This document shows positions 1 to 17,392 of a DNA stretch of 64,000 bases, one piece after another (the stretch's first letter is position 1; every line of letters begins with the position of its first letter). Under the pieces are notes generated by a model. That model was not told the origin of the DNA and did not search any database. It worked only from the letters and a program-made list of their open reading frames with translations. The DNA is from an uncultured Winogradskyella sp. GTDB lineage: Bacteria > Bacteroidota > Bacteroidia > Flavobacteriales > Flavobacteriaceae. Where the stretch lies: assembly GCF_947498345.1 (NCBI RefSeq), contig NZ_CANMJY010000005.1, forward strand, positions 225,168 to 289,167, in the 5' to 3' direction. The position numbers were made by a program, and so were the translations under genes.

Positions 1-1574
1 CGAGGTTTTTTGTGGTCTTAGTTAACAACATTAGTTTTTGCCCAACACTATCATGTAATTCCCGCGCTAATCGTGAACGCTCATTTTCTTGTTCGTTAAT
101 TAAATCTTGTGAGAATCGTTCTTGAAGTTCTTGTTTTACTTTAGCAAATTTTCTAGAACGTATTAAATATATAATTGTAAATAGTGCTAGCAAACTTAAT
201 CCACCAAACAATAGCCATTGCTGTTTAGCTCTATTTTTTTGATCCAAAACTACGATTTCATTTTGCTGGGATGAAATTTTAAAATCACGTTTTTCTGTTT
301 CGTATAAGGTCTGATAATACGATAAAGCTCTAGCTTTTTGCACACTATTTATAGAATCGTCAATTTTTTTATGCATAGAAGTATATTTATACGCATTCTC
401 AAAATCATTTAATCCTTTATATATATGGGTTAGCTTATCATAAGTTTGGTATACACCTTCTGTATTATTAGAGTTTAGATGAAGTTCTAAAGCCTTTTGC
501 GCATTAACTAAGGCTTGTTTATAATTTTTAGTTGCCATAAAATAATCTGCTAAAGACGACCAATACGCATATTCAAAAGGATTGGTCTTCATTAGAAAAT
601 TCACTTTGTACTTTATTGTAAAATTGTTGCGCTTTAACTAGGCTATCATTTTCTGAATATGCACTTAACAAAGAATATGTTATTATAGAGGATAATCTAG
701 TTCGTGGAGTAGACTCATCAGTTTTATTGTACCTGTAACTTTCATTTAGATACTTAATCCTCAAAGCCTGATTATCATTTTTATCGGCATCAATAGCAGC
801 ATTAAATAAATTCGGAACTATAGACCTATATTTTTTTTGCATTTTACTTATGCGAATAACCTCAGCACGCTCTTCTTTAGCCTCTTCATAAAATCCCATT
901 TTACTATATACTACAGCTAACGTGTTTCTTGCACTAAGTATACCCGAAGTATCTTTTAGAACCGTAAACATTTTCGTCGTTTCAGAGAGTAATTGTGAAC
1001 CTGTCGCATAGTCACCTGTATCCACATAGGCAGAAGCCTTATATGTTCTTGCTTGGGCATATAACACACTATCATTATCCTTTAAAGCAAAATCTTCAGC
1101 CTTATTGTATATAGGAATAGATTCTTTTATAGCGCCAGAAAAAAAATAAGCATCACCTGCATTGGTATATAGTCTTGCTAAAAGATCATAATCATTTGTT
1201 TGAATGTTTCTGCTTTCAAAATCTTTCAAGACTTTTATGCCTTCTTTAGGTCTATTAACTCTGTTTGCATAATAAAAAATTAATGAATTTGTGCGTACAA
1301 GTGCCAAATCAATAGAATCTAGCTCATAGGCTAAATCAATTGTATTTTTAGTAATAGAATCAAATTTTAAATGGGTTCTGTTATAACTAATGAATCGACT
1401 TAAACTGTCCAATAACCTCAGTTTATGACCTCCATTAGACTTAACAATATCGTCTTTAAGGTTTTGAATTTTTATATCAAAAGAATCTTCTTGCGCATAA
1501 CTTAAAGTAGTAAAAAATAAAACTAGAAAAACAAAGTATTTAAATACATTTTGGGTAAGTCTTATAGTTATCAT
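1..1574 (-). pseudogene. TPR-repeat sensor histidine kinase (HisKA_3/NarX-like) split by a +1 frameshift between 576 and 637; C-terminus runs off the window
   Basis: ORF 573..1574 (signal peptide + TPR) stops at TGA 573-575. The +1 frame continues open to base 1 (NPFEYAYWSSLADYF...KQQWLLFGGLSLLALF...ERSRLARELHDSVGQKLMLL), nearly identical to the kinase region of 1739..3538. Could be a pseudogene, a sequencing error or recoding. Confidence 0.8.
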
Positions 1575-1629
1575 ATATAATACATTAAATGCAGATTTTA
1601 ATAATAAACTACTCTAGTTGATTACGAAT

Positions 1630-1637
1630 CAAATGTA
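1630..1637 (-). promoter_or_regulatory. Bacteroidota -7 promoter element (TACATTTG)
   Basis: Matches TAnnTTTG ~55 bp upstream of the ATG at 1574; equivalent element upstream of the paralogue. Confidence 0.55.
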
Positions 1638-1738
1638 CAATAAAAGCATACTAGCATTAAATAAGAGCTGCCTCGTATTTTATACGTACTGGCTCTTATT
1701 TTTATAGTAACTAAATATCGAAAAAAATTTTATTACTG

Positions 1739-3532
1739 CTAAATTGGAATAGTTAATGTCATTTTTGTGCCTTTACTAATTTCACTATCTAAGTTCATTT
1801 TGGCTCCAATAATTTTAGCACGTTCAAACAAGGTCTTTAAGCCTAAGCCTATATTCTTGAGTTTTGTTTCAAATTCAAAACCTTTACCATTATCGCTGAT
1901 AACTACTGTTAAGTTGTTGAAAGTCTTATTAACCTTCATTTTAACTCCTTTGGCTTCTGAATGTCTTACAATATTACTCAACGTTTCTTGGATGATTCTA
2001 TATAGATGCAATTCAAACTCTTTAGGTAATACATGATCTATATTCTCTATATCTTCGGTAAAAAATAAATCTGTATTGACATTAATATCATAAACCAATG
2101 CATTAATGGCCTCTGTTAATCCTAAACGTTCAAGATTGGAAGGGTGTAAACCCCTAGAAATACTTCGTATTTCTTCCAATGTTGAGCTCGCAATACTTTC
2201 AGCGTCACTATTACCAATACTTTTTGTGGTTTTAGATAATAACATTAATTTTTGACCCACACTATCATGTAATTCTCGTGATATACGAGAACGCTCTTTT
2301 TCCTGCTCATTGATAAGATCTTGTGAAAATTGTTCTTGTAACTCTTGCTTTGATATTGCAAATTTTTTAGAACGAATTAAATAGATAATTAAAAACAGTG
2401 TAAAAAATCCTATTCCTCCAAATAACAGCCATTGATTTTTTATTTTGTTTTGTGCAGATAGAGTTTCTATTTTAGCTTGAGACAATTTTTTTTCTTGCAC
2501 AAACAATAAACTATCTTTTAATTTTTCTTTTTTGTATTTAAATTCTGCATCTAATTCAGCAAAATCTCTAATATTCTTAATGTTTAAGTTTTTTATTTGC
2601 TGTCTTTTATACAATCTGTAATATGAAAACGCGTCTTCGTGTTGATTTAAATCTGTATAAGCATTACTTACACTTAAATAACGATTTGCAAGTCTGTTAT
2701 TAAAGCCAAAAGCCTTTGTTAATTCTAAAGATTTTAAATAGTAATCTAGTGCTTTTTTTGGCTGTCCCAATTTTCTATAAGCATATCCAAGTTCTTTATT
2801 ACTTAATTCTGCGAACACTTTATCATTAATTTCTGCTGCAACTTTAAGCGCTTTTAAAGAATATTGAATTGAAGTTTTAAAATCTTTGATTCTAATGTAG
2901 TACCTCGATAATAAGGTTAATGAATAGGCCTTTTCTTTAAAATTATGTGTTGAGTCCGAGAATTTGTATGCTTTTTGAGCATATACTTTAGCTTTTTCAA
3001 AATCTTTATATACCATATAATAATTAGAATACGAATTCATTACATAAGGAATATCATCATGATTATACTGTTTAGCAGCATCCATTGCTTTGTTAAAAAA
3101 ACTTAAGGTCTTGGTGCTATCCTTTTTTTTAACATATAAACTCCCGAAATAACAGTAGGTCAAAGACAGTGATTGTGTTTCATTTATCCTTTCTTTTATA
3201 GTAAGACTTTCTTGAAGAAGTTTAAGACTATTTGCATAATCTGAGTTTCTTCTATAATTGTAAGCTAGTCTATCAAGGATATTTGCTTTTAGCAATAAGA
3301 AATGATGATTATTTTTATTTTTAGTTAAAACACTATCATTAATAATTGTTAGAGCTCCTTCTAAGTTTTTATAGGAATTTGAAGGATCAACTCTTAAATT
3401 TTGAATACCTTCATTGTATAATTTTTCGATAGCTATACTATCATTCTGAGCTTTTAATCCGGTAACAAAAACTAACGAAGTAATAAAAGCGACACATTTA
3501 AATACATTTAGGTGATGCGTTATAATAATCAT
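1739..3532 (-). CDS. TPR-repeat sensor histidine kinase (HisKA_3 + HATPase_c)
   Basis: Signal peptide, TPR helices, TM helix, H-box RISRELHDSVGQ, N-box IIQETLSNIVRH, G1 SDNGKGF, G2 GLGL. ATG 3532 preferred over TTG 3538 by homology to the neighbour. Confidence 0.92.
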   Translation of the reverse strand: MIIITHHLNVFKCVAFITSLVFVTGLKAQNDSIAIEKLYNEGIQNLRVDPSNSYKNLEGALTIINDSVLTKNKNNHHFLLLKANILDRLAYNYRRNSDYANSLKLLQESLTIKERINETQSLSLTYCYFGSLYVKKKDSTKTLSFFNKAMDAAKQYNHDDIPYVMNSYSNYYMVYKDFEKAKVYAQKAYKFSDSTHNFKEKAYSLTLLSRYYIRIKDFKTSIQYSLKALKVAAEINDKVFAELSNKELGYAYRKLGQPKKALDYYLKSLELTKAFGFNNRLANRYLSVSNAYTDLNQHEDAFSYYRLYKRQQIKNLNIKNIRDFAELDAEFKYKKEKLKDSLLFVQEKKLSQAKIETLSAQNKIKNQWLLFGGIGFFTLFLIIYLIRSKKFAISKQELQEQFSQDLINEQEKERSRISRELHDSVGQKLMLLSKTTKSIGNSDAESIASSTLEEIRSISRGLHPSNLERLGLTEAINALVYDINVNTDLFFTEDIENIDHVLPKEFELHLYRIIQETLSNIVRHSEAKGVKMKVNKTFNNLTVVISDNGKGFEFETKLKNIGLGLKTLFERAKIIGAKMNLDSEISKGTKMTLTIPI

Positions 3533-3587
3533 ATACAATAAATCGAATATAGATTTTAATAATCAACTACTCTCGTTGATTACAAAT

Positions 3588-3595
3588 CAAATTTA
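3588..3595 (-). promoter_or_regulatory. Bacteroidota -7 promoter element (TAAATTTG)
   Basis: TAnnTTTG match within the leader duplicated at 1593-1700. Confidence 0.55.
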
Positions 3596-3780
3596 CGATA
3601 AAAACATATTATACTAAATAAGAGGCAGTATTCATTTTATACGTGCTGGTCCTTATAAATTATTAACCCACGATTTTGAGGAAATCTTTTTAAAGTATTA
3701 AGCTAAGGACGTATAAAGTGCTTACACTATTTACTAGTCTTTCAATAATAATAACTCCATTACAGGCAATAATTTTAAAC

Positions 3781-3800
3781 TACTTTCTGATACATAAAGT
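3781..3800. repeat. Candidate distal attachment site (att)
   Basis: tactttctgatacataaagt vs tactttcctatacagaaatt (15859-15878, mnmE 3' end): 16/20 identical, same orientation. Confidence 0.65.
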
Positions 3801-3882
3801 ACTTCCCTCCTATTCATAGACGTTTCAAGAAAAATGGTACAGATACGGGACAATTATATTGAAAACAAGAAATAATAGAATA

Positions 3883-6800
3883 TTAGAAAATTTGTGATCG
3901 CTTAATCTCATTAAATGAATATATTGGTAATTTAGTTTTTTCTAAAAATTTAATTGGTAATTGATAAGATGCTATCACAATTGACTTTACCTTATAATCA
4001 TCAACATTTTTATTAAACCTCTTTGAAAGTTGTTTAATATTATCAACTAACCAATCATTTCTTGCAACATGTTTAGGTAACTGCTTATCAGCATAATTTT
4101 TCACATCTCTTTGAAAATCATACATTATTTTAGCTTGTTTGGTATTTTTACACTCAATTGAGTATACCAATTTGTTCTTATCATCAAAAGCCAAAATATC
4201 AATGTCACCATAATTTTTATTAGCTATTAAAACACCTTTTATATCAATTTTAACTTCAAAATCAATAACTCTCAATTTTGGGTTTTGAATTAGCCAATCT
4301 CTTACTTCATTTGTGAAGTTTTTACCTTTTATATTAAGACGTTTAGCAATTAAATTTTTTATTTTATGATGCTTATCCTCCACTCTAAGGCTTGCATTTG
4401 AAAATTGATATAATAAATTATCTGATGCTCGAATTAAAAACCTTGCACTCCATAGATACCAAACTTTATCGTCATTATCAATGAGTCTAATTAATGGTTT
4501 CCTTAGATAAGAGAGTTTTCTATTATATCGCCAAGGAAAAATTTCAGGTATTATGTAGCCTTCTGGTGGCTTATCCATTTTCCCTCTACTGTTGAGAGTA
4601 AGCAAATTTAAATATGAATTAATTTTTTCATTATTGAATTTTGTTTCCTTTATTATTAATTCAATGAATTCCTTTTCTTCCATCTTATAATATGAACTCT
4701 CTTGAATTAAACAATATTCCGCCAAAAACAATGAAATTGTGTTTATTTCTAAAAATGTAATTCCCAAATCATAAATAAAGGCCTCATCTATTTTCTTTAA
4801 ATAATCTTCTTCATTTTTTTCATTTGATTCATTCTTTTCATGTTTATTGAAATTAGATTCAAAATTCTCTTTGTAGTCAACCAATTCATCTTCTTTATTT
4901 GATATATTATAGTTAAGCAGAACATCATCGAAAAAGCCTTTACTTATTCCAATTCTTCCAGATTCCAATAATCCCATTTTTGGACTATCTATATCAAACC
5001 TTATTATATCTTGTACATATCCAAAATATATCATTTCATTCATTAATGCTAGTAAATAATCTACGTCGTCATTATTTGGAAGCTTATCATTAAAATACGG
5101 TTCTGCACTCGCAAATTCTATAAGGCATCTCATCGATAAAGAAACATTTACATACTCCGATTCTGTTTCATGAAATTCATTAAAAACATCTACATATTTT
5201 GAAAAACATTCTAACCTTGCAGGTATATATAATTTTCGGTATTCATTCGCTTGTATAATTGCTTCATGATGATGCATTAAAAAGCTTAATAGTTCGAGTG
5301 TATTGTATTCAATTAATTTATTTCTTAACTCTTGAATAATAGCATTAACACAATCAACAAGTAATTTAATTTTATCCTTTTTATCAATTATTTCAACAGG
5401 AATTTCCTTGTCATAATTGAGCCAATCAACAACACTTTCTAAAACATAAGAGTTATCATATTTTTGTATGAATCGTATTTTTGGAAGGTGTCTTTGGTCC
5501 ATCTTTAAATTATAACTTGAATCAACAGTTAAAATCATTTTTGCAGAACCTAATGGTATGTGTTTATCAATTATAAGCTGTATAACTTCCTCACTTAACT
5601 CATCATACCCAATTGCATTAAATAATTTGCTCATACTTTCTATAACTACAGACATAAGTTGTCTTTCGCCATGATTATCTTTTCTATATAGAGCAGCAAA
5701 AAATTCAAAAGGAACTTGAATTTTAATTTTTCCTTCGGCTGCTATAATTTCATATTCAAGATTGAATACTTCTAAATCTAAATTATGTAAAACTTGAGGA
5801 TTGAAATCATATAGTTTGTCATCAAGTGAAATAATAAATTCAATTGGAAAAGGAACAGAGTGATTGAAATGTTTGTTAAGTGATGGATAAAGTTCATTTA
5901 ACCAATGGGCAATTGCATCGATAAAATGAGTAGTCATTGTATCTCTTTTTTTTGGACATGTTATCCAAATTGGGTAATCAAATAATTCTATTGCAGACTT
6001 ATAAATCCCAATATAATATTCTTGTGATAAATAAATTGGAGCATGTTTAGCCGTTTTGTAAACAGGCAAATAACCTATCCCTCTTTTAGGTTTAAAAAAC
6101 ATAACACCATGTTCATCATTTTTAGTATTAATATCAGTTATAACTTTACCTTGTGTTCCAAAATCAAAAAACAAACCATTATAAGCTTCATCACTATGCA
6201 AAAATGAATCATTATTCTTTGTATAATATGAATAATACGTTAAAATAGAATACATAGGAGCAATTCTAACTCCTTTGTTTATCGCTCTATCAAAAGCCTT
6301 ACAATATTTCCAAAGAGAAAGCTTATTTAAATCCCAATTGCTATTTAATCTCTTTAAATCAATAATGTTTATCATTAAAAAGTTATCTGAGCCTTCAATA
6401 TCTTTTAAGGCAAAGAATTTATCATCGGTAGTTGAATAAGAGGAAATTAATAATAATGTTAAGAATTGGTAATTTTCATTATTAACTTTATTACGTACAA
6501 AAGAAATTACTGTACTCGCTCTTTCTTCATAATCGCTATCTTCACTTGAGTTCAATATTACATTAACATATGCCAATTTATTTTCATCAAATTGCCATAT
6601 TGATTCACCATTTCTTAATTCTATTTTGTCCTTAATTTGGGTATCTAAATCGGTCATAGACCAATTCATTTTTCTTAATTCCTTGAAAGAATCATTCTCT
6701 ATGTTTAAATCATAGATTTTCAGCAATTCTTCTAAATGACCATTGACTTCTAATTCATTAACAATGAAATTGTTAAGCGAAAACATTTGTGCACTTGGAA

Positions 6801-7509
6801 ATATTAAATAATATATATCATTGCATATGATAAATGGTTTTAAAAGAATCGGATTTTTATCAATATTGATTAAATCAATTTCATCTTTTTCTATATCAAA
6901 AACGAAATTACTTATTACATCTCTTTTAATATTAAATTCATCATAGATAGCTTGAATTTCTTCTTTACTGAAACAAATTAAATCTTTATAATTTTTAAAA
7001 AAATATTCATCAGGAAAGAACAATTCTTTTTCATTATTATCTAAGGAAATGTACCTTTTTAATCCAATTTCTGTAGCAATATTTGTATGAATTGAAAGAA
7101 AGAAAATAATGGATTCATATATGTTTTTTTTGAATTCACTACTTAGATTATTTTCTGCATGTAGTATACTGTATGTAAGTCCTTGAACAATTTCTGAGCT
7201 ATTTATAACTATTCCTGGAAAAACTATATTATTACCATTTGAAAAAAGAAAATTTTCTGTGAATGATGTTTCAACTGGATCTTCCCTATGATCACTTGGA
7301 AACATTTCTTGTACTGCATTAACAACTCCATCATAATTAAGCTCTTCATCTACATTATTCATGTTCTTAGACAACAGACTAACTATGATCTCAATTCTTA
7401 GATTCTTACCATGATTTTCTGGAAATAATTGTAAAATTGAAAATAATTTTAATAATTCTGATGTACTTTTCTTAGATATATAATTTATAAAATCCTCGTA
7501 TTCTTCCAT
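3883..7509 (-). CDS. Large hypothetical protein (1208 aa) with C-terminal PD-(D/E)XK nuclease-like domain; candidate defence effector
   Basis: C-terminal GDIDILAFD...YSIECKNTK fits D-x(n)-E-x-K; located in island cargo. Confidence 0.6.
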   Translation of the reverse strand: MEEYEDFINYISKKSTSELLKLFSILQLFPENHGKNLRIEIIVSLLSKNMNNVDEELNYDGVVNAVQEMFPSDHREDPVETSFTENFLFSNGNNIVFPGIVINSSEIVQGLTYSILHAENNLSSEFKKNIYESIIFFLSIHTNIATEIGLKRYISLDNNEKELFFPDEYFFKNYKDLICFSKEEIQAIYDEFNIKRDVISNFVFDIEKDEIDLINIDKNPILLKPFIICNDIYYLIFPSAQMFSLNNFIVNELEVNGHLEELLKIYDLNIENDSFKELRKMNWSMTDLDTQIKDKIELRNGESIWQFDENKLAYVNVILNSSEDSDYEERASTVISFVRNKVNNENYQFLTLLLISSYSTTDDKFFALKDIEGSDNFLMINIIDLKRLNSNWDLNKLSLWKYCKAFDRAINKGVRIAPMYSILTYYSYYTKNNDSFLHSDEAYNGLFFDFGTQGKVITDINTKNDEHGVMFFKPKRGIGYLPVYKTAKHAPIYLSQEYYIGIYKSAIELFDYPIWITCPKKRDTMTTHFIDAIAHWLNELYPSLNKHFNHSVPFPIEFIISLDDKLYDFNPQVLHNLDLEVFNLEYEIIAAEGKIKIQVPFEFFAALYRKDNHGERQLMSVVIESMSKLFNAIGYDELSEEVIQLIIDKHIPLGSAKMILTVDSSYNLKMDQRHLPKIRFIQKYDNSYVLESVVDWLNYDKEIPVEIIDKKDKIKLLVDCVNAIIQELRNKLIEYNTLELLSFLMHHHEAIIQANEYRKLYIPARLECFSKYVDVFNEFHETESEYVNVSLSMRCLIEFASAEPYFNDKLPNNDDVDYLLALMNEMIYFGYVQDIIRFDIDSPKMGLLESGRIGISKGFFDDVLLNYNISNKEDELVDYKENFESNFNKHEKNESNEKNEEDYLKKIDEAFIYDLGITFLEINTISLFLAEYCLIQESSYYKMEEKEFIELIIKETKFNNEKINSYLNLLTLNSRGKMDKPPEGYIIPEIFPWRYNRKLSYLRKPLIRLIDNDDKVWYLWSARFLIRASDNLLYQFSNASLRVEDKHHKIKNLIAKRLNIKGKNFTNEVRDWLIQNPKLRVIDFEVKIDIKGVLIANKNYGDIDILAFDDKNKLVYSIECKNTKQAKIMYDFQRDVKNYADKQLPKHVARNDWLVDNIKQLSKRFNKNVDDYKVKSIVIASYQLPIKFLEKTKLPIYSFNEIKRSQIF

Positions 7510-7576
7510 TTAGGCCCTACTTTCTAATTCTTTTTTTACTCCTCTCCTATTTTATCATTTGTATATTCTTCCATAA

Positions 7577-8842
7577 TTAGTTCAAATCTAATTCGTCATC
7601 AGCTCCTGGTAATTCTAATGCCTTTACTGATTGAATAGCATTTCCAGCTATTCCTTTAACCGAACCATACATGTCAATTGTATTGGTCACTACCTTTTCA
7701 ATTTGTTTCTCTCTTTGTTTCCAAATTCTTTGCATTGAGCGTTTTTCACTTTCTAAATCTGATTTCATTTGAGTAAACCCTTCAACAATTGCTTCTATTT
7801 GCATTCTAAATGTGCTACTAGTAAGATAATCATATAGTAAATCCATTTTATCTCCTTTATTTTCTTGAGTTATGACAGCATTATTAACTTGTAAAATACC
7901 TTCTCTTAAAACAGCACAAAGACCTTTAAATTCTTCATAATTACAAATCCAAATACCATCTTTTAATCCCATTCTATCCATATCAGTTGGCATAACTTCT
8001 GTTACCAACACTCCAATATTTGCTTCTCTTTTTCTTATATCTGCTTTAAATTTTTCAATCCAACTTGGTTGAAAATCTTTGGTACGTTTACTTTCATAAT
8101 ATATAGTGCCGCAATTTTGTTCAGTTCTTGTATGAACAATTTGAATACAATCTCCTCCTCTAGCTCCTTTTTTTATTTCTTCAATTGTATCTAATGGGAA
8201 TTTTGATTCTAGCCACTCCTCTATTGCTAATTCTTGAACTTCTCCTTGTAATTGCATAGAGCCTTGCTCTTGCTTACGTTTCATTTCTTCAGTAAGCTTT
8301 TTCTGGTCTTCTAACTGCTTTTGCATTTCTTTAAAACGCAATTCGTTTTTCTCTTCTTCAGATTTCTTAATCTTTTCTTTTTCTCCAATTAGAATTTCAT
8401 TCAGTTTTTTCTGTGCTTCAGCTTCGGCTGCTTCTTTTAATTCACTTTTTTCACGCTTCAACTTTTCAATCTCTGCTTTAGAACGATTCAATTCTTTTAC
8501 TTGTTCAGACTTTTCATTCAATTCTTTTTGTAAAGCATCAAATTGTTCTGACTGCTCTTCTTTTAATTTCAGTTTTAGTTTTAATTCTATTTCTTTCTTT
8601 TCTTCTTTTAACTGATTTTCTAATCGTTCTTGAAAAAGTTCATTTTCTTGTTTTTTCTTTTTCTCAAACTCAAGTTTTTCTTCATTTAGCTTTTTTTGTT
8701 CTGCTTCATATTTCTTTTTTTCTTCAGCAATTTGAGATTGATATTTTTGTTTTATTTCTTCTTCAAGTTGGTGTGCTAAAATATCTTGTACATCTATTGA
8801 CGTGCCGCAGTTTGGACATTTTATTTGAGTTTCGTTTTTCAT
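7577..8842 (-). CDS. DUF2130 family protein (Zn-ribbon, coiled coil, restriction-endonuclease-like C-terminus)
   Basis: IKCPNCG, long E/K coiled coil, QGSMQLQGEVQEL, GGDCIQIV...IYYESKRTKDF, MYGSVKGIAG. Confidence 0.85.
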   Translation of the reverse strand: MKNETQIKCPNCGTSIDVQDILAHQLEEEIKQKYQSQIAEEKKKYEAEQKKLNEEKLEFEKKKKQENELFQERLENQLKEEKKEIELKLKLKLKEEQSEQFDALQKELNEKSEQVKELNRSKAEIEKLKREKSELKEAAEAEAQKKLNEILIGEKEKIKKSEEEKNELRFKEMQKQLEDQKKLTEEMKRKQEQGSMQLQGEVQELAIEEWLESKFPLDTIEEIKKGARGGDCIQIVHTRTEQNCGTIYYESKRTKDFQPSWIEKFKADIRKREANIGVLVTEVMPTDMDRMGLKDGIWICNYEEFKGLCAVLREGILQVNNAVITQENKGDKMDLLYDYLTSSTFRMQIEAIVEGFTQMKSDLESEKRSMQRIWKQREKQIEKVVTNTIDMYGSVKGIAGNAIQSVKALELPGADDELDLN

Positions 8843-11019
8843 ACTACTTCAGTTTTTAATCTTCTCATCATATTATAATGACTTTCATGTCCCATTTTAT
8901 TAAAAATGTCTTTAAACACTTTTAGATACTTTTCTATACTTTCTGGTTCCACAAACACAACCAAATCATCATTAATAAAATGCGAGCCATCATTTATCCA
9001 TGAAACCAAAGATTTACAAATTATTTGCTCTTCTCCTTCAAATTTACTTATAGCGTCCTCATAATCTAATCCACCAAGAATGTTGAAATAATATTCTAGA
9101 ATTCTTCGTAGTGTATTGAAAATTGTTGCTGTATTAATGTTTTCTAAATCATCTAATTCTCTCCATAATAATTCATATGTTGTTTGAATTGGGTTTTCTG
9201 GATGTTTAATTATTTTGGTTTGATTGTCTAACTTTCGAACTATCCAAAAAGACACCTTGTTTGAATGACTATGTCTACTTCCTAAAAATGTTACTTCCTT
9301 ATAGAAATATACATTATGTGTTAGAATAAAAATCTGCTTAACTCCATGTTTGCCTTTCTTTACATCTTCAACTACTTCTTTAATTAAGTTGCTTACAACA
9401 AACAATATATTACTATCAAGACTTGAAATTGGGTCATCAATTACAACTACTTTATTTGTTGCAATTCCTGTTTCAGATTTGCTTCCTTTTAAAAGATGAT
9501 AGAAATATAAAAAAGTAATAAATGTATACTCTCCTTCACTTAACGATTCGTTGACCTCAGTTCCGTCTTCCCTTACAATTTTATAAAACCCTTTAGTTTC
9601 TGATTCGTCAAGCTCAAAATTTGTAAAACCAAAAAGAGTTAGAATTTTATTTATTTCATTGACTGTTGGAAGAACACTTGTAATTTCAGACTCTTTTAAA
9701 TTCACTTGCTTCTGTAGTTCGAACCTTTTGTCAATTTTTTCTTTTTTTGACTTATTCATTCCATCTTTAGCCTTTTCTACATCATCTTTAGTCTTTGAGT
9801 AAGTTTTTAAATCTAACTTCAATTCATTTAATACAAATTGCCATATTTCGGATTTTAAATCATCTTTTTCTTTGGTAATATTTTTTACAGTCTTATTATT
9901 TGTTTCAATTTCCTCTCTAAACTTTTTAATAATGTTTGAAACATTTTTTAAAACGGGTTCTAAAGATTTTAATTCTATTTCAATACTTGGTGTTTTTTGT
10001 TTTGATTGAAGTATAATAACATTTGACTTAAACTGTTCTTCTAAAAGCTCTATTTTATTTTTTAAATCATCAAATTCAAGAATAGTTATATCTTCTGTTA
10101 ATATGGATTTGGCGTTGGTTATTAGTTCATTAACATACCTTTTATATTCTTGTATAAAATCATTTAGTTCTAGCTTATTATTCTCGTAAGTTTCATCAAA
10201 AAATGATTCGATTTCGTTTTTTAAAGTTTCACTAACTTCTTGTTGACAAAAAGGGCATTGATTTTTCGTGACTTTTAAGTAATCCACTCCATCTTTAATC
10301 CAATCACTATTATCAAGTTTTTTAATTAACTTCCCAATTTCGACATCTTCTTTTCCAATAATTTTTGTTGAAAGAATTCTGGAATTTTCTTTAATAGGTA
10401 GTTCAGAATATTCAAACTGATTGATTTGATTAAATGACTTCAAATTATCATTAAAAACTTTTTTGCATTTATCTTTAATATCATCTCCATTTAATAAAAC
10501 AGAAGTATTGCTAATTTCATTAATACACTTATTGAAAAAGGCTTCTCCACTTCCCATAAACCCTTGGTATGCAGGTTTGAAAAACTCTTCATATTTAAGC
10601 TTAATTTGCCATGCTTTGTTAATGGTTTCTCTTTTCTTTTTATCAAAAATTGACTCTTGCTTTTCAATAGCTTCTTTTAATCCATCAATACTTTTAGTTA
10701 AATTATCTATTTCAATATTAGATTCTTTAATAAAAGTTTGTGCATCTGTCTCATCCTTTCCTAAAGTAAAAATCCCTTCAATTGCATTACTTTGGTTAAA
10801 GCTTGAGTTAACGAAATTCTTATTGTAAACCAAAGTTTCAATTGTGCTTGATTCCCAATCTAATGAACAATCTGCATAAGAACTACAATCATCTATTACA
10901 TTGCCTAATGAGGTTTTACCTGTTCCATTACTTCCATAAAAATAGTTTACTTCAGATGGTTCAATTTGAACCATGTCCTTGTAAGAAGCAGTTTTATGTA
11001 TTTTAAGTTTATTAATCAT
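8839..11019 (-). CDS. AAA_13 family ABC-type ATPase, RloC-like (zinc hook + C-terminal HEPN-like region)
   Basis: Walker A GSNGTGKT, coiled coil with CPFC zinc hook, signature LSEGE, Walker B VIDDPISSLD, H-loop LTHN, C-terminal NTLRRILEYYF...WINDGSH. Confidence 0.82.
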   Translation of the reverse strand: MINKLKIHKTASYKDMVQIEPSEVNYFYGSNGTGKTSLGNVIDDCSSYADCSLDWESSTIETLVYNKNFVNSSFNQSNAIEGIFTLGKDETDAQTFIKESNIEIDNLTKSIDGLKEAIEKQESIFDKKKRETINKAWQIKLKYEEFFKPAYQGFMGSGEAFFNKCINEISNTSVLLNGDDIKDKCKKVFNDNLKSFNQINQFEYSELPIKENSRILSTKIIGKEDVEIGKLIKKLDNSDWIKDGVDYLKVTKNQCPFCQQEVSETLKNEIESFFDETYENNKLELNDFIQEYKRYVNELITNAKSILTEDITILEFDDLKNKIELLEEQFKSNVIILQSKQKTPSIEIELKSLEPVLKNVSNIIKKFREEIETNNKTVKNITKEKDDLKSEIWQFVLNELKLDLKTYSKTKDDVEKAKDGMNKSKKEKIDKRFELQKQVNLKESEITSVLPTVNEINKILTLFGFTNFELDESETKGFYKIVREDGTEVNESLSEGEYTFITFLYFYHLLKGSKSETGIATNKVVVIDDPISSLDSNILFVVSNLIKEVVEDVKKGKHGVKQIFILTHNVYFYKEVTFLGSRHSHSNKVSFWIVRKLDNQTKIIKHPENPIQTTYELLWRELDDLENINTATIFNTLRRILEYYFNILGGLDYEDAISKFEGEEQIICKSLVSWINDGSHFINDDLVVFVEPESIEKYLKVFKDIFNKMGHESHYNMMRRLKTEVV

Positions 11020-11640
11020 ATTTGGTTATTATGAATAACAATAGACTATGTCGTATTAATTGACAATGCTATTATTTAATTAAAAAATGTTAATTAAGGG
11101 AGAGTTTAAATCTACAAAATATTGAAGGAATTATCGTGAAGGAAAACCGTAAATATTTGAATATTAGTCAATTTAAAGTCATTCCACACACATTACGCTT
11201 CCCTCCTACGTCGTCGCATAAAAAGTGTTCCATTAACATAGTAGAAGCAACTTTTGAGAAGAATTTTTTTTAAAAACCCGTAGTAACAACTTTCGCTTTT
11301 AACCAAAGCTCAAGTTACATAACGCGGTACATTATAGGACAAATATCATATTTCGATTATATTTTGTATTTACGTTCAATAAGCAATTTATAAATCTTTT
11401 GAAAGCATTGTTTTCACTGTACTTATGTGAAATTTGAATTGATGATTCATATTTTAAATTTACGCCCACAGTTTATACATTTGAATACTTCAAAATCAAT
11501 AAATCTAACCAGATTAATATAAATTAATTTGCTTTAAATTAAATACACTTTATATCTATCTGTATTAATTTATTTAAAACTAAATCCTAAAGTTATATAT
11601 TTGTTTTAACATATAGAATATAGCGTTAGCTATTTAATCT

Positions 11641-11771
11641 TGTTCGAAAAAACTGGTAATTTTTGAATGTGTACAAGATAAATGGACTGATGCTCACGTA
11701 ATGGCGTGGGCTGTGTTTATTTGTGCACGGGTATACCAGTACCTTTCGAACAGTAAGCTACAGTTCCACGC
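11641..11771 (+). other. Long structured intergenic element (nested hairpin with a mutually exclusive alternative stem)
   Basis: 11641-11658 pairs with 11734-11752; 11669-11682 with 11716-11728; 11692-11698 with 11705-11711. Alternative stem 11704-11714 with 11760-11771. Confidence 0.6.
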
Positions 11772-11825
11772 TTATTGTTTTAACTAACTTCATTTTGGAA
11801 CTGGATGATTATAATATTAAATATT

Positions 11826-12425
11826 ATGAGAAACCAAATTATCAAATTGATATTCTTATCAATTTTAACTACAACCTACTTTGGTTGTTCTTCTGATTCA
11901 GACTCAGATGATTGTGAAACTATTACTTGTCTAAATGGCGGTACTTTTGTGGATTGTGAATGTGAATGTCCGCAAGGATACACAGACAACAATTGCTCCA
12001 CTCAAGTAACACCTAACAAAGTAATCATTACCAAGGCTATTGTAAAAGTATTTCCTAATACTGACAACGGTGGTTTTTGGGATGCTGCTATTCCTAATGC
12101 AGAAGATGCATTACCTGATATCTATACCACTTTTCAGGATTCTAATTTAAATATAATTTATGATAGTCCTACATTTTATGAAAATGCAATTTCTGGAGAG
12201 GGCACTTTCTTTGAGTTTACATTAACACCTTCTCTTGAACTTACCGTTTTTGACAATCCATTTTTAGTAAATATCTGGGATTATGATACTACTAGTGAAG
12301 ATGACTTTATGACAAGTTTTGGCTTCTTTGCGTATACATCAAGCAACAACTTTCCTGATGTAATTACTGTGGTCAGTCAATCAGATGAAATATTGGTTGA
12401 TCTAGAAGTAACTTATGAATGGTGA
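11826..12425 (+). CDS. Lipoprotein with EGF-like Cys domain and C2-like domain
   Basis: Lipobox TYFGC followed by SSDSDSDD; CETITCLNGGTFVDCECECPQGYTDNNC (EGF-like); PDIY...VNIWDYDTTSEDDFM (C2-like). ATG 11826 preferred over 11805. Confidence 0.7.
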   Translation: MRNQIIKLIFLSILTTTYFGCSSDSDSDDCETITCLNGGTFVDCECECPQGYTDNNCSTQVTPNKVIITKAIVKVFPNTDNGGFWDAAIPNAEDALPDIYTTFQDSNLNIIYDSPTFYENAISGEGTFFEFTLTPSLELTVFDNPFLVNIWDYDTTSEDDFMTSFGFFAYTSSNNFPDVITVVSQSDEILVDLEVTYEW

Positions 12426-12439
12426 TATATAGGTATAAA

Positions 12440-12481
12440 ACATCTAGATAAAATCTTGGTTTTGTCTAGATGTCTTTTTTT
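12440..12481 (+). terminator. Rho-independent terminator
   Basis: acatctagataaaa / ttttgtctagatgt stem followed by a T run, after the lipoprotein stop. Confidence 0.65.
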
Positions 12482-12687
12482 CTAGAGTTTTGTTCATTTG
12501 GAGGCTTATTATATATTCTTTTTAATAAAATAAATGATGACAAACCTATTCCAAAAGCAATTAATATAGTGAGTAGAATTTGATTCTTGTTTTTTAATGA
12601 TTGGCTATCTATTTGGGCTAATCTCAAGTCTTCTGGAAAGTCCTGCTTGATATCGAGTTGGTAACAATTAATAATTTCCTCATTCAT
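12466..12687 (-). CDS. Small hypothetical membrane protein
   Basis: 73-aa ORF with one hydrophobic helix; in the island backbone gene run. Confidence 0.5.
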   Translation of the reverse strand: MNEEIINCYQLDIKQDFPEDLRLAQIDSQSLKNKNQILLTILIAFGIGLSSFILLKRIYNKPPNEQNSRKKDI

Positions 12688-12689
12688 GG

Positions 12690-13046
12690 CTATTGAGTCA
12701 ATTTTATTATTTTAAATATATTCTTCTCAACTAATGAATAGGCATAATCATATACACATATCCATTTAACACCTTCTCTGCTTATAATATGTGTATTACA
12801 ACCAAAATGCAAACCAGCACCTTCCAAGAAATCGTGTGATTTAACAATCTCTTCATTAGGCCCCAAAATAGTTTTCAAAACCTTTCTGTTTTTGTCCAAA
12901 ATCTTTTCTATTCCTGATTTTGCCTTCCGCTTTTTATATGCTTTCAAATTATTATACTTTATTTGGTTGGCTCTGTTTGCGAAAACTTGATTGCTTCTCC
13001 TTTTTATAAATACCTCGCCAGTAAGTGGATCCATTCCCTTTTCCAT
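12690..13046 (-). CDS. Hypothetical protein (Bacteroidota basic protein)
   Basis: 118-aa ORF, co-directional and tightly spaced with the HTH gene. Confidence 0.6.
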   Translation of the reverse strand: MEKGMDPLTGEVFIKRRSNQVFANRANQIKYNNLKAYKKRKAKSGIEKILDKNRKVLKTILGPNEEIVKSHDFLEGAGLHFGCNTHIISREGVKWICVYDYAYSLVEKNIFKIIKLTQ

Positions 13047-13090
13047 AAAATTTAATTATTATTTTGATTTTGAAGATAAGTATTGGCTTC

Positions 13091-13402
13091 CTAATCAATG
13101 ACACTTGGCTTTCCATCTTTTAACCAATTGATAATATCTTTTCTAGAAAATGTTAATGGTCGCCTTTTAGAAATAACTGGTATTTCAAAGCGGCAAACTT
13201 TCGAATAGATAGTAGAATTTTTATAACCAGTTAACTCTTTTACTTCATTTATAAAAATGATGTCGCTATTAGAAATGCTAGTACCATTTTTATTCTGATA
13301 ACTATTAATTATTCTTTCTGCCTCTCTAGTGAAAGCTTCTTTACTAAGGTCTATATATTCTCCAACCGTTAGAGAATAAAGGGGTTTTGATAAATCACTC
13401 AT
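13091..13402 (-). CDS. Helix-turn-helix DNA-binding protein, excisionase/AlpA-like (HTH_17)
   Basis: INEVKELTGYKNSTIYSKVCRFEIP...LTFSRKDIINWL; typical position after the integrase in Bacteroidota islands. Confidence 0.8.
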   Translation of the reverse strand: MSDLSKPLYSLTVGEYIDLSKEAFTREAERIINSYQNKNGTSISNSDIIFINEVKELTGYKNSTIYSKVCRFEIPVISKRRPLTFSRKDIINWLKDGKPSVID

Positions 13403-13507
13403 TTTTATATTGTTTTTAATTAATAATGAGCATTGCGCAATGCATTTAATGAAATTTCAACCCCCAAATAATGAAGAAATACTGGTTAAGACAACAATGA
13501 TTCGTTA

Positions 13508-13606
13508 AGTGTCGAGTGAGTGTCGAGTGCAAATATTAGATAGTATAAAGCGGGTCTTTATTCTTAATCAACTTCTAATAAAATATTTTTCGCTAAGTGT
13601 CGAGTG
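13508..13606. repeat. Three copies of the 11-bp direct repeat AGTGTCGAGTG
   Basis: Exact copies at 13508-13518, 13519-13529 and 13596-13606. Confidence 0.9.
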
Positions 13607-14569
13607 CTAAATTTTTGCAAGTATAGATTCTAGCAATTTTTTTCGTGCTTCATCATCACCACTAGATTTACGAAGAACATCTTTGCCAAATTCCTGATTT
13701 TCTTTATTAAGGAAACACATATTTGCTACAATCCATTTATCATGTTTATGATATTCAATTTTATTTGAACTCTCAGACAAATAATCCATAAACCACTTTA
13801 AGTCTTTATTGGTTCCAGTCCATACAATTCTTTTATTTTTTGGAATGATATTCCCTTCAAAAATTCTTATGAAATCCGTAAACAAAGTGTCTTCATGAAT
13901 AAAGTTATTGACCTTTAAATGCCTTAATACATTACTCAAAACATGACTATTCTTTTGGAGATAGTCTGGGTTCGTGTTAAGTTCTCTTAACCTTAGAGAG
14001 CTATATTTACCTTTTAATTTTCGATTTAAGCTATTTTTATTTTTAATCCAGCCATCAATGGTTTCGGTAATTCTATCATTAAAAATTGTATCACTGAATT
14101 GCTTCAATTCTAATTTTATGAAATCAATGAACCTAACTAAATCTTTATTAAATGTTCTTTCCAGTTGGTACTCTAAAAAAATCTTTAATTCTATGAGTTT
14201 AGAATCATATTGCCGTAGTTTTAAAGCAAACCAAAGATCAAAGCCTGAAGTTTCTCGCTTGATGATAATATCCTGATCGAACTGGTAGCATGATTCTTTA
14301 TTGAAGAAATAATTTGTTTCAAATCTCCCTTTGAGAGTATTGGAATTTTTTTTATAGTCCTTTAAATTCCTTTCGTAATAGAGTCGAGAATCTTTATTAT
14401 CTAAATCAGCAATAAAGCTTACTTTTCCTTCCTTGATTATAAGTTCTTCGGCTTTATCAATGACTTTTTTGGCTAAATCATTTGAGGATTTATCACTTAT
14501 ATATTGATCATGCTCATATAGCCAAATATCACCAAGATTAATGTCATAATAACTATAATTGACATCCAT
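13607..14569 (-). CDS. Hypothetical protein, island backbone
   Basis: 320-aa ORF starting 2 bp after the integrase stop; no recognisable motif. Confidence 0.65.
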   Translation of the reverse strand: MDVNYSYYDINLGDIWLYEHDQYISDKSSNDLAKKVIDKAEELIIKEGKVSFIADLDNKDSRLYYERNLKDYKKNSNTLKGRFETNYFFNKESCYQFDQDIIIKRETSGFDLWFALKLRQYDSKLIELKIFLEYQLERTFNKDLVRFIDFIKLELKQFSDTIFNDRITETIDGWIKNKNSLNRKLKGKYSSLRLRELNTNPDYLQKNSHVLSNVLRHLKVNNFIHEDTLFTDFIRIFEGNIIPKNKRIVWTGTNKDLKWFMDYLSESSNKIEYHKHDKWIVANMCFLNKENQEFGKDVLRKSSGDDEARKKLLESILAKI

Positions 14570-14571
14570 AA

Positions 14572-15690
14572 TTATAAATTAATATCAGGTATAGCATTAG
14601 CTGCATCTACCTTCTTCTGATTAATAATTTGAGCATAAACTTGTGTAGTTTTTAACTCTTTATGTCCAAGTAACTTCGATACGGTATAAATATCAGTACC
14701 AAAGGTAAGTTGCAAAGTTGCATACGTGTGTCTTGCACAATGAAACGTAATGGTTTTACTAATCCCTGCTTTCATAACCCATTGCTGTAACTTCAAGTTG
14801 TTCCAAGCACTATATCTCAAGCCTTTAAATACGCGCTCCTCATCTCCTTCTCTATCTTCGAGTAGCTTAAAAGCTTGCTCAGGAATTGGATGTGTTTGAT
14901 AACCACTAGTTTTCTTCTGCTTAAATCGAATGTAATAACCCTGTTCCTCTGAAAACTGTACTTCTTTCCAAACCATTTTTTGTATATCCGACCATCTTAA
15001 GCCGGTTAAAGCACTAAATATAAATGCTTGTTTAAGAATTGGGATTTCACAATCTGTTTTGGATACCTTTTTCAATTCATCCATCGTTAAAAACTCTCTT
15101 TCAGATTCTCCTTGCTTAAATCCCTTGACATCTAAAGCTGGGTTATATTTGATAACACCTTCTTTAACTGCTTCTCTTAAGCATGCTTTCACCTTATTAA
15201 AGTAAGAATAACAAGAGTTTTGAGATAAAGACTGATTACTTTTTGTTTTCGCCGTATGCTTTAAATAATATTTAAAATTCTCCAACCACTTAATATCGAT
15301 ATCCTTAAAAAGAACGACATCACCATTGAATTTAATTAAATGCTTTAATACACTATCCCAGTTCCCATAATTTCCAGTAGATTGGTTATAGCGCTCTTCC
15401 GTTTTCTCGGAAAAATACGTGATGAAGTTTTTATTCAAATTTTCATTGGTCGAATTAGAAAACCCATGCTCTTCATGCTGGATCTCTAAAAACTTTTTTG
15501 AACGAATGCTCTCTGCTAACAATAAAGCCTTTTTGTTATGAGCCCTTTCTTTTGAAGTTTTTGGTGTTGAGTAAATATAAAGGTTCAGCGATTCCTTTTT
15601 ACGTTTTTGATTAGCCTTCGGCAGATAATAATCTAGAAATAAGCTTTCTTGACCATCTTTCTTTTTTCGTTTTCTAATTGATACATTCAT
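14572..15690 (-). CDS. Site-specific tyrosine integrase (arm-binding N-terminus, SAM-like domain, catalytic domain)
   Basis: N-terminal MNVSIRKRK...SLFLDYY; catalytic TGLRWSD, FHCARH, LLGH, TTQVY. Confidence 0.95.
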   Translation of the reverse strand: MNVSIRKRKKKDGQESLFLDYYLPKANQKRKKESLNLYIYSTPKTSKERAHNKKALLLAESIRSKKFLEIQHEEHGFSNSTNENLNKNFITYFSEKTEERYNQSTGNYGNWDSVLKHLIKFNGDVVLFKDIDIKWLENFKYYLKHTAKTKSNQSLSQNSCYSYFNKVKACLREAVKEGVIKYNPALDVKGFKQGESEREFLTMDELKKVSKTDCEIPILKQAFIFSALTGLRWSDIQKMVWKEVQFSEEQGYYIRFKQKKTSGYQTHPIPEQAFKLLEDREGDEERVFKGLRYSAWNNLKLQQWVMKAGISKTITFHCARHTYATLQLTFGTDIYTVSKLLGHKELKTTQVYAQIINQKKVDAANAIPDINL

Positions 15691-15699
15691 GTGACAAAA

Positions 15700-17246: not shown

Positions 17247-17263
17247 AATTTTATTCTTTAGTA

Positions 17264-17365: not shown

Positions 17366-17392
17366 TAAAGCAAAATTTGAAAAAAAACAAAC

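What the first reader, a model, noticed from the sequence alone, without database searches (positions are those of the whole stretch)
3883..11019. Candidate three-gene anti-phage operon: RloC-like ATPase, DUF2130, large nuclease
Seen: co-directional genes; the AAA_13 stop overlaps the DUF2130 start (ATGA, 8839-8842), then a 67-bp gap to the 1208-aa gene. Each has a plausible nuclease centre (HEPN-like region; D..ESK; D..ECK), and two have Cys-pair Zn sites and long coiled coils. Established: RloC is a DNA-break-activated anticodon nuclease, and integrative islands concentrate defence genes. Inference: an uncatalogued multi-component system or a stack of independent ones; DUF2130 has no assigned function that I know of.
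Basis: partly seen in the sequence, partly recalled or inferred. Interest (0 to 1): 0.7.

Follow-up and report, generated by a model that had tools for sequence, protein, structure and literature searches.

The report
Stacked RloC, DUF2130 and Upx defence genes
The three genes are real and probably share one transcript, but they are a stack on a mobile island: a known-type tRNA-cutting defence enzyme (RloC) with an optional, uncharacterised nuclease partner (DUF2130), followed by an independent, already characterised anti-phage protein (Upx).

Summary
Three co-directional minus-strand genes lie at 8839-11019, 7577-8842 and 3883-7509, with an ATGA overlap, a 67-bp gap and the stated motifs.

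- **Gene 1** meets every sequence criterion of RloC: ABC ATPase motifs, an invariant CxxC hook in a helical insert, and the R-x3-E-x37-SH anticodon-nuclease triad. It is PADLOC candidate PDC-S06.
- **Gene 3** is a full-length member of the Upx family. Its family profile matches the SeUpx structure 9WUF at E=1.7e-124, and the C-terminal D/ExK centre is conserved. Upx is a published single-protein, terminase-sensing defence.
- **Gene 2 (DUF2130)** is a zinc-knuckle, coiled-coil PD-(D/E)XK nuclease. I found no published function.

The trio does not recur. The RloC+DUF2130 pair moves as a 3.8-kb block into three other contexts without Upx. Upx relatives stand alone three times.

DUF2130 is 72-94% identical across Bacteroidota. 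It sits directly behind at least five very different RloC-like lineages, and also behind SIR2-HerA and RhuM. It is also a stable stand-alone gene in Flavobacterium. Among 151 Flavobacteriaceae genera, DUF2130 and RloC share a genome only here.

Verdict: a defence stack. The RloC-DUF2130 link is recurrent but facultative, and that link is the only open question.

The parts
8839..11019 (-). RloC-family anticodon nuclease (AAA_13; PADLOC PDC-S06), 726 aa. Walker A G29-T36 (10912-10935); zinc-hook C255xxC258 (10246-10257); signature LSEGE (9529-9543); Walker B/D-loop (9415-9450); H-loop (9313-9324); ACNase R638-x3-E642 (9094-9108) and S679-H680 (8980-8985).
   Evidence: The motif definition comes from PMC2610378.
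7577..8842 (-). DUF2130 (PF09903, COG4487), 421 aa. N-terminal C9xxC12 knuckle (8807-8818); two long helices at residues 18-143 and 151-214; PD-(D/E)XK core with D231 (GGDC, 8147-8158) and E250-S-K252 (8087-8098); helical C-terminal tail. The start overlaps the RloC stop by 4 nt.
   Evidence: The PD-(D/E)XK assignment is also made in PMC3424549.
3883..7509 (-). Upx-family single-protein defence gene, 1208 aa. C-terminal PD-(D/E)xK with D1104 (4192-4209) and E1119-C-K1121 (4147-4158). At the position of the SeUpx N-terminal D127-x-R129 motif it has N93-x-I95 (7228-7239).
7510..7576 (-). 67-bp spacer between DUF2130 and Upx. No terminator-like hairpin. A Bacteroidetes-type -7 box match (TAGATTTG, 7583-7590) lies just inside the DUF2130 3' end, so Upx may also have its own promoter.
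   Evidence: These are consensus matches only, with no transcript data.
11172..11340 (-). Conserved ~165-nt non-coding element, 150-320 nt upstream of the RloC start. It marks the 5' edge of the 3.8-kb RloC-DUF2130 block. It also precedes the lone Upx homologues elsewhere.
   Evidence: No Rfam match.
14572..15690 (-). Tyrosine integrase (Arm-DNA-bind_5, Phage_int_SAM_5, Phage_integrase) next to mnmE (15858-17246). It is the mobility gene of the low-GC island that carries the three genes.

Best explanation
The stretch is the cargo of an integrase-borne island and is a stack of units, not one machine.

Unit 1 is a 3.8-kb cassette that moves between genera. Its first gene is an RloC-family protein. 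This is a Rad50-like ABC ATPase whose helical insert carries a CxxC zinc hook, fused to a PrrC-type anticodon nuclease. By analogy with Geobacillus and Acinetobacter RloC, its ATPase is switched on by DNA ends or damage during infection, and it then cuts tRNA anticodon loops and stops translation. That step is inferred from family membership.

The second gene of the cassette, DUF2130, is translationally coupled to the first. It encodes a PD-(D/E)XK nuclease on a long coiled-coil stalk with an N-terminal CxxC knuckle. DUF2130 is an autonomous, very slowly evolving gene. It works on its own in many genomes and is repeatedly placed behind defence NTPases. I read it as an optional DNA-directed accessory. 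I put about 40% on real functional cooperation with RloC, for example making or holding DNA ends in the way Mre11/SbcD does for Rad50/SbcC.

Unit 2 is Upx, a self-sufficient sensor-nuclease. By analogy with SeUpx and HpUpx, it binds the phage large terminase and kills through its C-terminal PD-(D/E)xK nuclease.

All three genes are probably transcribed from the region upstream of RloC. That is inferred from the gene spacing only.
For: RloC membership:
- All ATPase motifs, C255/C258 and the R638-x3-E642-x37-S679-H680 triad are conserved across 19 homologues, matching the published RloC definition.
- The AF2 model hits Rad50, SMC and LmuB.
- JGI names relatives 'wobble nucleotide-excising tRNase'.

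Upx membership:
- The family profile matches 9WUF at E=1.7e-124 over nearly the full length.
- The catalytic D/E/K align with D1161/E1176/K1178.
- Upx alone defends in published tests.

Stack rather than system:
- The RloC+DUF2130 block (window 11351-7548) is about 90% identical in nucleotides in Tenacibaculum and Maribacter, with unrelated flanks.
- A metagenome contig holds the pair with an intact DUF2130 and the same 4-nt overlap.
- None of these is followed by Upx.
- Upx relatives at 80-82% identity stand alone in L098, L099 and L128.

The RloC-DUF2130 link is recurrent:
- 6 of 80 DUF2130 loci have an AAA_13 gene upstream; in five of them it ends 0-138 bp before DUF2130, and in the sixth (L055) two small genes lie between.
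- With this window's RloC, these proteins fall into five lineages that share only 27-35% identity, while their DUF2130 partners share 74-90%.
- The partner type is scattered on the DUF2130 tree.

The link is facultative:
- 17 of 151 Flavobacteriaceae genera have DUF2130 and 8 have a full-length AAA_13, but only this genome has both.
- RloC orthologues at 60-71% identity lack DUF2130.
- In 15 of 15 Flavobacterium species DUF2130 is syntenic next to a LysR gene.
Against: - There is no experimental or transcript evidence for this locus. No public run holds it.
- Functional cooperation between RloC and DUF2130 is untested. DUF2130 carries a 1-nt deletion in two of the four copies of the cassette, so RloC persists without it. 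These could also be assembly errors.
- DUF2130's other recurrent upstream partners are SIR2-HerA and RhuM. Like RloC, RhuM is seen here inside restriction loci. A shared genomic niche could therefore explain the adjacency without any interaction.
- The N-terminal DxR nuclease motif reported for SeUpx is not conserved here. The 'dual nuclease' part of the Upx mechanism may not carry over.
Confidence: 0.7

Rival explanations
1. RloC and DUF2130 form a dedicated, obligate two-component system. It would resemble Rad50-Mre11, with DUF2130 docking on the RloC zinc hook or coiled coil. The nuclease would be required for sensing or killing. Upx remains independent.
For: - The ATGA overlap is conserved in four copies of the cassette.
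- At least five divergent RloC-like lineages lie just upstream of DUF2130.
- Both proteins have an invariant CxxC pair next to long helices.
- More distant RloC homologues are followed by other nucleases: RNase_T-BRCT twice and YhcG PDDEXK once.
Against: - There is no genome-level co-occurrence: only 1 of 24 carrier genomes among 151 genera has both genes.
- The closest RloC orthologues outside the 92-94% cluster lack DUF2130.
- DUF2130 is frameshifted in two cassettes while RloC stays intact.
- Geobacillus RloC is active alone (PMC2610378, PMC3458546).
Confidence: 0.12
2. DUF2130 is a pure passenger. It would be a housekeeping-like DNA repair or recombination nuclease whose 5' flank happens to be a landing site for defence genes, or one more restriction-linked ORF that shares a niche with RloC and RhuM. 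It would have no role in defence here.
For: - It holds a syntenic, non-defence position in 15 Flavobacterium species.
- Its tree broadly follows taxonomy.
- In the close-relative sample, 27 of 45 close upstream neighbours are not defence-type, including TspO, HAD, DinB and SelO; in the broader sample, many of 62 close neighbours on either side are ordinary metabolic genes such as PurA and isocitrate dehydrogenase.
- Sequence conservation is extreme for a defence gene.
- It has no PADLOC hit.
Against: - All 18 defence-type upstream neighbours come from only three families (HerA 7, RhuM 5, AAA_13 6, of 45), not a broad mix of defence genes.
- It travels with RloC inside a mobile 3.8-kb block and on an integrase island.
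- It is present in only 11% of Flavobacteriaceae genera.
Confidence: 0.3
3. All three genes make one integrated three-component anti-phage system.
For: The genes are co-directional and tightly spaced, with a 4-nt overlap and a 67-bp gap. No terminator-like hairpin lies between them.
Against: - The trio is found nowhere else. None of 80 DUF2130 loci and none of 16 RloC loci has a Upx relative.
- The three closest Upx loci lack RloC and DUF2130.
- Upx is sufficient alone in published assays.
Confidence: 0.03

Closest known systems
RloC (Geobacillus kaustophilus and Acinetobacter baylyi; Davidov & Kaufmann 2008, Klaiman et al. 2012, 2013). It is listed by DefenseFinder, and the family is covered by PADLOC candidate PDC-S06.
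   Same: The layout matches GkaRloC K44, C291, D572, R692, E696 and H737: Walker A K35, a CxxC hook in a helical insert, Walker B D528/D529, the linchpin H568, and the triad R638-x3-E642-x37-S679-H680. The ATPase has a Rad50-like fold.
   Different: It is about 45-80 aa shorter than GkaRloC. It is translationally coupled to a DUF2130 nuclease, a pairing not described in the RloC papers I read. No biochemistry has been done on this lineage.
Upx (SeUpx, PDB 9WUF, Zhou et al. 2026 PMC13099982; SeUpx, HpUpx and PbUpx as terminase sensors, Evans et al. 2026 PMC13601566).
   Same: Homology runs over the full length. The C-terminal D1104, E1119 and K1121 correspond to D1161, E1176 and K1178. It is a single gene that stands alone in relatives. 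Bacteroidota Upx homologues such as HpUpx are known to be only about 16% identical to SeUpx.
   Different: It scores far below the NCBIfam equivalog cut-off (173 against 1900 bits). SeUpx's N-terminal D127-x-R129 motif is N93-x-I95 here. It lacks the N-terminal SEC-C motif that many clade members carry. Here it sits 67 bp behind another cassette.
Rad50-Mre11 / SbcC-SbcD, and nuclease-NTPase defence pairs (Lamassu LmuB+LmuA, Gabija, OLD; Ragucci et al. 2025 preprint).
   Same: A coiled-coil ABC ATPase is encoded next to a separate DNase. Foldseek places the ATPase with Rad50 and LmuB.
   Different: The RloC ATPase already carries its own RNase effector. The DNase is a PD-(D/E)XK enzyme, not an Mre11 phosphoesterase. 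The pairing is optional at genome level. No complex has been shown.
PD-(D/E)XK nucleases with long helical extensions. By fold these include MspJI, the SPARDA DREN domain, the DdmD nuclease domain and Hjc. RmuC is similar by architecture, which is my own recollection and was not tested.
   Same: DUF2130 has the D...ExK core on a beta-sheet flanked by helices.
   Different: All TM-scores are 0.21 or lower. No Pfam or PDB sequence match exists beyond DUF2130 itself. The N-terminal CxxC knuckle plus the ~190-aa stalk is not seen in those structures.

Membership tests
RloC | [quoted passage not shown] | tested here: met
   G34/K35, L493-S-E-G-E497, D528/D529...D535 and T567-H568-N569 are invariant or nearly invariant in 19 homologues.
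RloC | Coiled-coil insert with a Cys-X-X-Cys zinc hook between the ATPase half-sites | tested here: met
   C255 and C258 are invariant. They lie inside a helical insert spanning residues 90-446 of the AF2 model. Zinc binding and the apex geometry were not tested.
RloC | C-terminal Arg-X3-Glu-X36-52-His triad, with Ser often before His | tested here: met
   R638-x3-E642-x37-S679-H680. The definition was read in PMC2610378.
RloC | Wobble-nucleotide-excising tRNase activity governed by a DNA-dependent ATPase | not testable with these tools
   This is a biochemical property.
PrrC | No coiled-coil insert, and obligate linkage to a type I R-M (prr) locus | tested here: not met
   A 350-aa helical insert with CxxC is present. 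No hsd genes lie in 1-24000. The PADLOC PrrC hit covers only the C-terminal part (E=3.4e-14).
Upx | Full-length homology (about 1200 aa: NTD, MD, CTD) to characterised Upx | tested here: met
   Profile A6 against 9WUF gives E=1.7e-124 over profile positions 33-1222 and chain residues 37-1253. Relatives carry PF28173 'Upx-like'.
Upx | C-terminal PD-(D/E)xK centre (SeUpx D1161, E1176, K1178), essential for defence | tested here: met
   D1104, E1119 and K1121 are invariant in 31 homologues and aligned to the SeUpx residues.
Upx | N-terminal DxR exonuclease centre (SeUpx D127/R129) | tested here: not met
   The aligned residues are N93 and I95, and N93 is invariant in this clade. This motif comes from one paper and may not define the family.
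Upx | NCBIfam equivalog threshold (NF042954, 1900 bits) | tested here: not met
   The score is 172.8 bits. The protein is a distant clade member, not an equivalog of SeUpx.
Upx | Acts alone, activated by the phage large terminase | tested here: inconclusive
   The only test possible here was genomic context. Homologues stand alone in L098, L099 and L128. Activity was not tested.
DUF2130 (PF09903) / PD-(D/E)XK superfamily | Pfam gathering score, and a D...(D/E)xK motif on a restriction-endonuclease-like fold | tested here: met
   261.5 bits against a 26.7 cut-off. D231, E250 and K252 are invariant in 78 sequences. The AF2 model (pLDDT 86) matches MspJI, the SPARDA nuclease, DdmD and Hjc, weakly.
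A three-gene (or obligate two-gene) defence system | Components co-occur across genomes | tested here: not met
   The trio occurs in 0 of 80, 0 of 16 and 0 of 3 loci centred on each gene. For the pair, only 1 of 151 genera has both genes, although 17 and 8 have one each.

The most novel reading that the evidence does not exclude
DUF2130 may be a modular, stalked DNase subunit that plugs into Rad50-like defence ATPases. It would dock on RloC through a mixed zinc hook (its C9xxC12 with RloC C255xxC258) or through coiled-coil pairing. That would give RloC the Mre11/SbcD-like nuclease it was long noted to lack, and would link DNA-end processing to tRNA cleavage. The pairing would have been assembled independently at least five times in Bacteroidota.
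Probability: 0.2. Interest if true: 0.7.

Novelty: new variant of a known kind. Interest (0 to 1): 0.38.

Why it matters
Two of the three genes can now be named with confidence, as RloC and Upx. That removes the claim of a new three-gene system. It also adds a marine Flavobacteriaceae clade to Upx, one that lacks the reported N-terminal nuclease motif.

The open point is DUF2130. It is a very conserved, widespread nuclease, and I found no paper on its function. It is repeatedly wired behind RloC-like ATPases, SIR2-HerA and RhuM. If it modulates these systems it would be a shared accessory of several defence families, and a possible answer to how RloC meets DNA. If it does not, it is a useful marker of places where defence genes land.

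Tried and rejected
- **Transcript evidence.** No public run holds more than 27% of the words of 7000-9500, so co-transcription could not be tested.
- **Empty-site test for the island.** The histidine-kinase flank (3000-3700) has no DNA match in 30 other genomes of the genus.
- **att repeats.** Repeat search and a local alignment of the two island ends gave only a weak, gapped 100-nt similarity. I do not claim exact boundaries.
- **Rfam.** No match over 3000-17500 at E<=0.1, including the 165-nt element.
- **Promoter and terminator scans.** Sigma-70-like sites are fewer than in shuffles, and the TAnnTTTG count is no more than chance. These scans were uninformative.
- **PDB sequence searches.** P0001 and P0002 gave nothing useful.
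- **The search for related loci with the 78-sequence DUF2130 alignment.** It failed because no block was conserved enough. A 7-sequence alignment worked.
- **DUF2130 as antitoxin or immunity protein for RloC.** Rejected as the main reading. RloC orthologues and other AAA_13 genes live without any DUF2130 in the genome, and DUF2130 has an intact nuclease centre.
- **The 165-nt element as a defence-specific marker.** Rejected. The arrays it heads carry TetR, LytTR, oxidoreductase, hydrolase and efflux genes.
- **A preprint note on PDC-S04/PDC-S06 matching RloC/SoFic 'respectively'.** This seems at odds with my PDC-S06 hit. I did not resolve it.


Full report
**Observation**

The window is from a low-GC marine flavobacterium. 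Earlier notes of this scan name the genus Winogradskyella, and I did not check that name. Three co-directional minus-strand ORFs occupy 8839-11019 (726 aa, P0001), 7577-8842 (421 aa, P0002) and 3883-7509 (1208 aa, P0003).
- The first stop and the second start overlap as ATGA.
- The second and third genes are 67 bp apart.
- GC is 27-28% here against 32-35% further along the window.
- A tyrosine integrase with an Arm-DNA-binding domain (14572-15690) lies beside mnmE.

The island context is therefore sound. I could not define clean att repeats or find an empty site.

**Gene 1 is an RloC-family protein**
- It matches Pfam AAA_13 end to end (E=1.2e-169) and PADLOC PDC-S06 (E=1e-256).
- I aligned 19 homologues that include five very divergent lineages. 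The following are invariant or nearly so: Walker A (K35), C255-x-x-C258, the LSEGE signature, Walker B/D-loop, the linchpin H568, and R638-x3-E642-x37-S679-H680.
- This matches the published definition of RloC: ABC ATPase motifs, a coiled-coil/zinc-hook insert, and Arg-X3-Glu-X36-52-His with Ser before His (PMC2610378; PMC3458546).
- An AF2 model (pLDDT 79) places the CxxC inside a helical insert spanning residues 90-446. Its best PDB matches are Rad50, SMC heads and Lamassu LmuB.
- JGI names relatives 'wobble nucleotide-excising tRNase'.
- It is not PrrC, because it has the insert and no linked hsd genes.

**Gene 3 is Upx**
- PADLOC Upx (2.6e-39) and NCBIfam Upx_antiphage hit residues 514-1189.
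- phmmer finds PDB 9WUF (E=6.7e-19).
- A profile of 31 homologues matches 9WUF at E=1.7e-124 over almost the whole chain. 9WUF is the SeUpx cryo-EM structure.
- D1104, E1119 and K1121 are invariant and align with SeUpx D1161, E1176 and K1178, which are required for defence.
- Upx is a single-protein system. It is reported to sense the phage large terminase (PMC13601566) and to be a dual nuclease (PMC13099982).
- One difference stands out. The N-terminal D127-x-R129 motif of SeUpx is N93-x-I95 here, and N93 is invariant in this clade.
- The protein also lacks the N-terminal SEC-C motif that many clade members carry.

**Gene 2, DUF2130**
- It matches Pfam PF09903 (E=9e-78) and has no PADLOC hit.
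- Across 78 diverse homologues, C9, C12, D231, E250 and K252 are invariant.
- The AF2 model (pLDDT 86) shows a small N-terminal knuckle, helices at residues 18-143 and 151-214, an alpha/beta core and a helical tail.
- Its weak PDB matches are all PD-(D/E)XK nucleases: MspJI, the SPARDA nuclease, DdmD and Hjc.
- The 2012 PD-(D/E)XK survey lists it with unknown function. Only four papers in the library mention it, and none assigns a function.

**Is it one system? No**

Centred on DUF2130, I fetched 80 Bacteroidota loci.
- The protein is 72-94% identical across orders.
- Its neighbourhood is hypervariable: 630 clusters among 794 ORFs.
- None of the 80 loci has a Upx relative.

Centred on Upx, the three closest relatives (80-82% identity) stand alone.

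Centred on RloC:
- The block at window 11351-7548 (the upstream element, RloC and DUF2130) is about 90% identical in nucleotides in a Tenacibaculum and a Maribacter genome, with unrelated flanks.
- A metagenome contig holds the pair with the same 4-nt overlap and an intact DUF2130.
- None of these copies is followed by Upx.

So the pair is a unit of transfer, and Upx is a separate unit. In this window Upx has come to lie 67 bp behind the pair.

**Is the pair a system? Only loosely**

Evidence for a link:
- Among 45 close co-directional upstream neighbours of DUF2130, 7 are HerA (preceded by SIR2 in 9 loci), 5 are RhuM (PDC-S05 in PADLOC, 5-6 hits) and 6 are AAA_13 (PDC-S06 in PADLOC, 5 hits).
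- Six of the 80 loci have an AAA_13 protein upstream of DUF2130, and all carry the RloC motifs. In five it ends 0-138 bp before DUF2130; in L055 two small genes lie between.
- With this window's RloC these proteins fall into five lineages that share only 27-35% identity. Their DUF2130 partners share 74-90%.
- On a DUF2130 tree the partner label needs 5 changes for 6 rows, which is no better than shuffled labels. The closest relative of this window's DUF2130 (94% identity) is HerA-linked.
- The junction has therefore been made repeatedly.

Evidence against an obligate link:
- Among 151 Flavobacteriaceae genus representatives, 17 have DUF2130 and 8 have a full-length AAA_13. Only this genome has both.
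- RloC orthologues at 60-71% identity lack DUF2130. They sit at the end of type I R-M operons, on an integrase island, or alone.
- More distant RloC relatives are followed by other nucleases (RNase_T-BRCT, YhcG) or by nothing related.
- In 15 Flavobacterium species, DUF2130 is syntenic beside a LysR gene.
- A broader sample shows many housekeeping neighbours, though AAA_13 is again among the most frequent neighbour families there, at 3 of 62.
- In the Tenacibaculum and Maribacter copies, DUF2130 carries different 1-nt deletions in short homopolymers while RloC stays intact. This is either decay or assembly error.

**Mechanism**

What is shown:
- the family memberships;
- intact catalytic motifs in all three proteins;
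- co-transfer and translational coupling of RloC and DUF2130;
- the independence of Upx.

What is inferred from the families:
- RloC responds to DNA ends or damage through its Rad50-like ATPase and zinc hook, then cuts tRNA anticodons.
- Upx binds terminase and degrades nucleic acid through its C-terminal nuclease.

What is inferred weakly:
- DUF2130 acts on DNA and may feed or tether RloC. I give this about 40%.
- Otherwise it is a passenger that shares the restriction-linked niche with RloC and RhuM.

**Earlier notes**

Earlier AI notes of this scan describe DUF2130 beside OLD, TrlF and RloC-like ATPases. One of them reached the same 'facultative partnership' view. I treat these as leads only. 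The counts given above are my own.

**Side finding**

A conserved ~165-nt element (11172-11340) heads the cassette.
- It also precedes the lone Upx homologues.
- It occurs in 60 of 151 Flavobacteriaceae genera, often as same-orientation arrays 5-10 kb apart.
- It stands in front of mixed accessory modules.
- It has no Rfam match.

Noticed in passing
window 11172-11340 (minus strand); also L082:7672-7855, L083:7665-7845 and 11479-11548, L098:75-262, L099:305-480, L126:4854-5010, L128:7736-7807: A conserved ~165-nt non-coding element (...CTATAATGT.CGCGTTATGTAACTTGAGCTTTGG...TTAATGGAACACT...TAGGAG.G.AG.GTAATGTGTGTGGAATG). It heads the RloC-DUF2130 cassette and also the lone Upx homologues. It occurs in 60 of 151 Flavobacteriaceae genera, often as same-orientation arrays 5-10 kb apart (for example 5 copies in G007:C16 and 6 in G119:C12). 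The modules it precedes are mixed accessory genes: TetR, LytTR two-component systems, oxidoreductases, hydrolases and efflux. There is no Rfam hit and only one covarying pair in five sequences. It could be a promoter or leader, or a recombination site for module exchange.
   Followed up: partly
L098:309-384 (minus strand): ARAGORN calls a 76-nt tRNA-Ser(GCT) between the 165-nt element and the Upx homologue in a Polaribacter MAG. That is short for a tRNA-Ser, which normally has a long variable arm. It could be a tRNA-like attachment remnant.
   Followed up: no
L082:10178-11480 and L083:10178-11480: In the Tenacibaculum and Maribacter copies of the cassette, DUF2130 has independent 1-nt deletions (AAAAA to AAAA at codon 105; TTT to TT at codon 305) while RloC stays intact. 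This is either independent decay or homopolymer assembly error.
   Followed up: partly
L085:4671-5639, L089:10277-11239, L096:10695-11810: More distant RloC homologues (30-43% identity, in Bacilli, Tenericutes and Treponema MAGs) are followed by other nuclease genes: RNase_T exonuclease fused to BRCT (twice) and a YhcG/DUF1016 PD-(D/E)XK (once). This hints that RloC-type ATPases often keep a DNase next door.
   Followed up: no
L002, L009, L014, L033, L040, L049, L052, L053 (upstream of DUF2130): SIR2-HerA defence pairs are followed by DUF2130, with the HerA-DUF2130 gap ranging from -17 to +241 bp where DUF2130 follows directly. This three-gene SIR2-HerA-DUF2130 arrangement recurs in about 10% of the Bacteroidota DUF2130 loci sampled.
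   Followed up: partly
window 2-3538 (minus strand): Two paralogous TPR/histidine-kinase genes flank the island on the far side (1739-3538, and 573-1574 plus 2-604). A 160-nt internal repeat lies between them (G000:C5:226705-226866 against 228663-228823, 79% identity).
   Followed up: no
P0285-P0337 (homologues of P0003): Most Bacteroidota Upx-clade proteins carry an N-terminal SEC-C / YecA-type zinc motif (PF02810). This window's protein and its closest relatives lack it.
   Followed up: no
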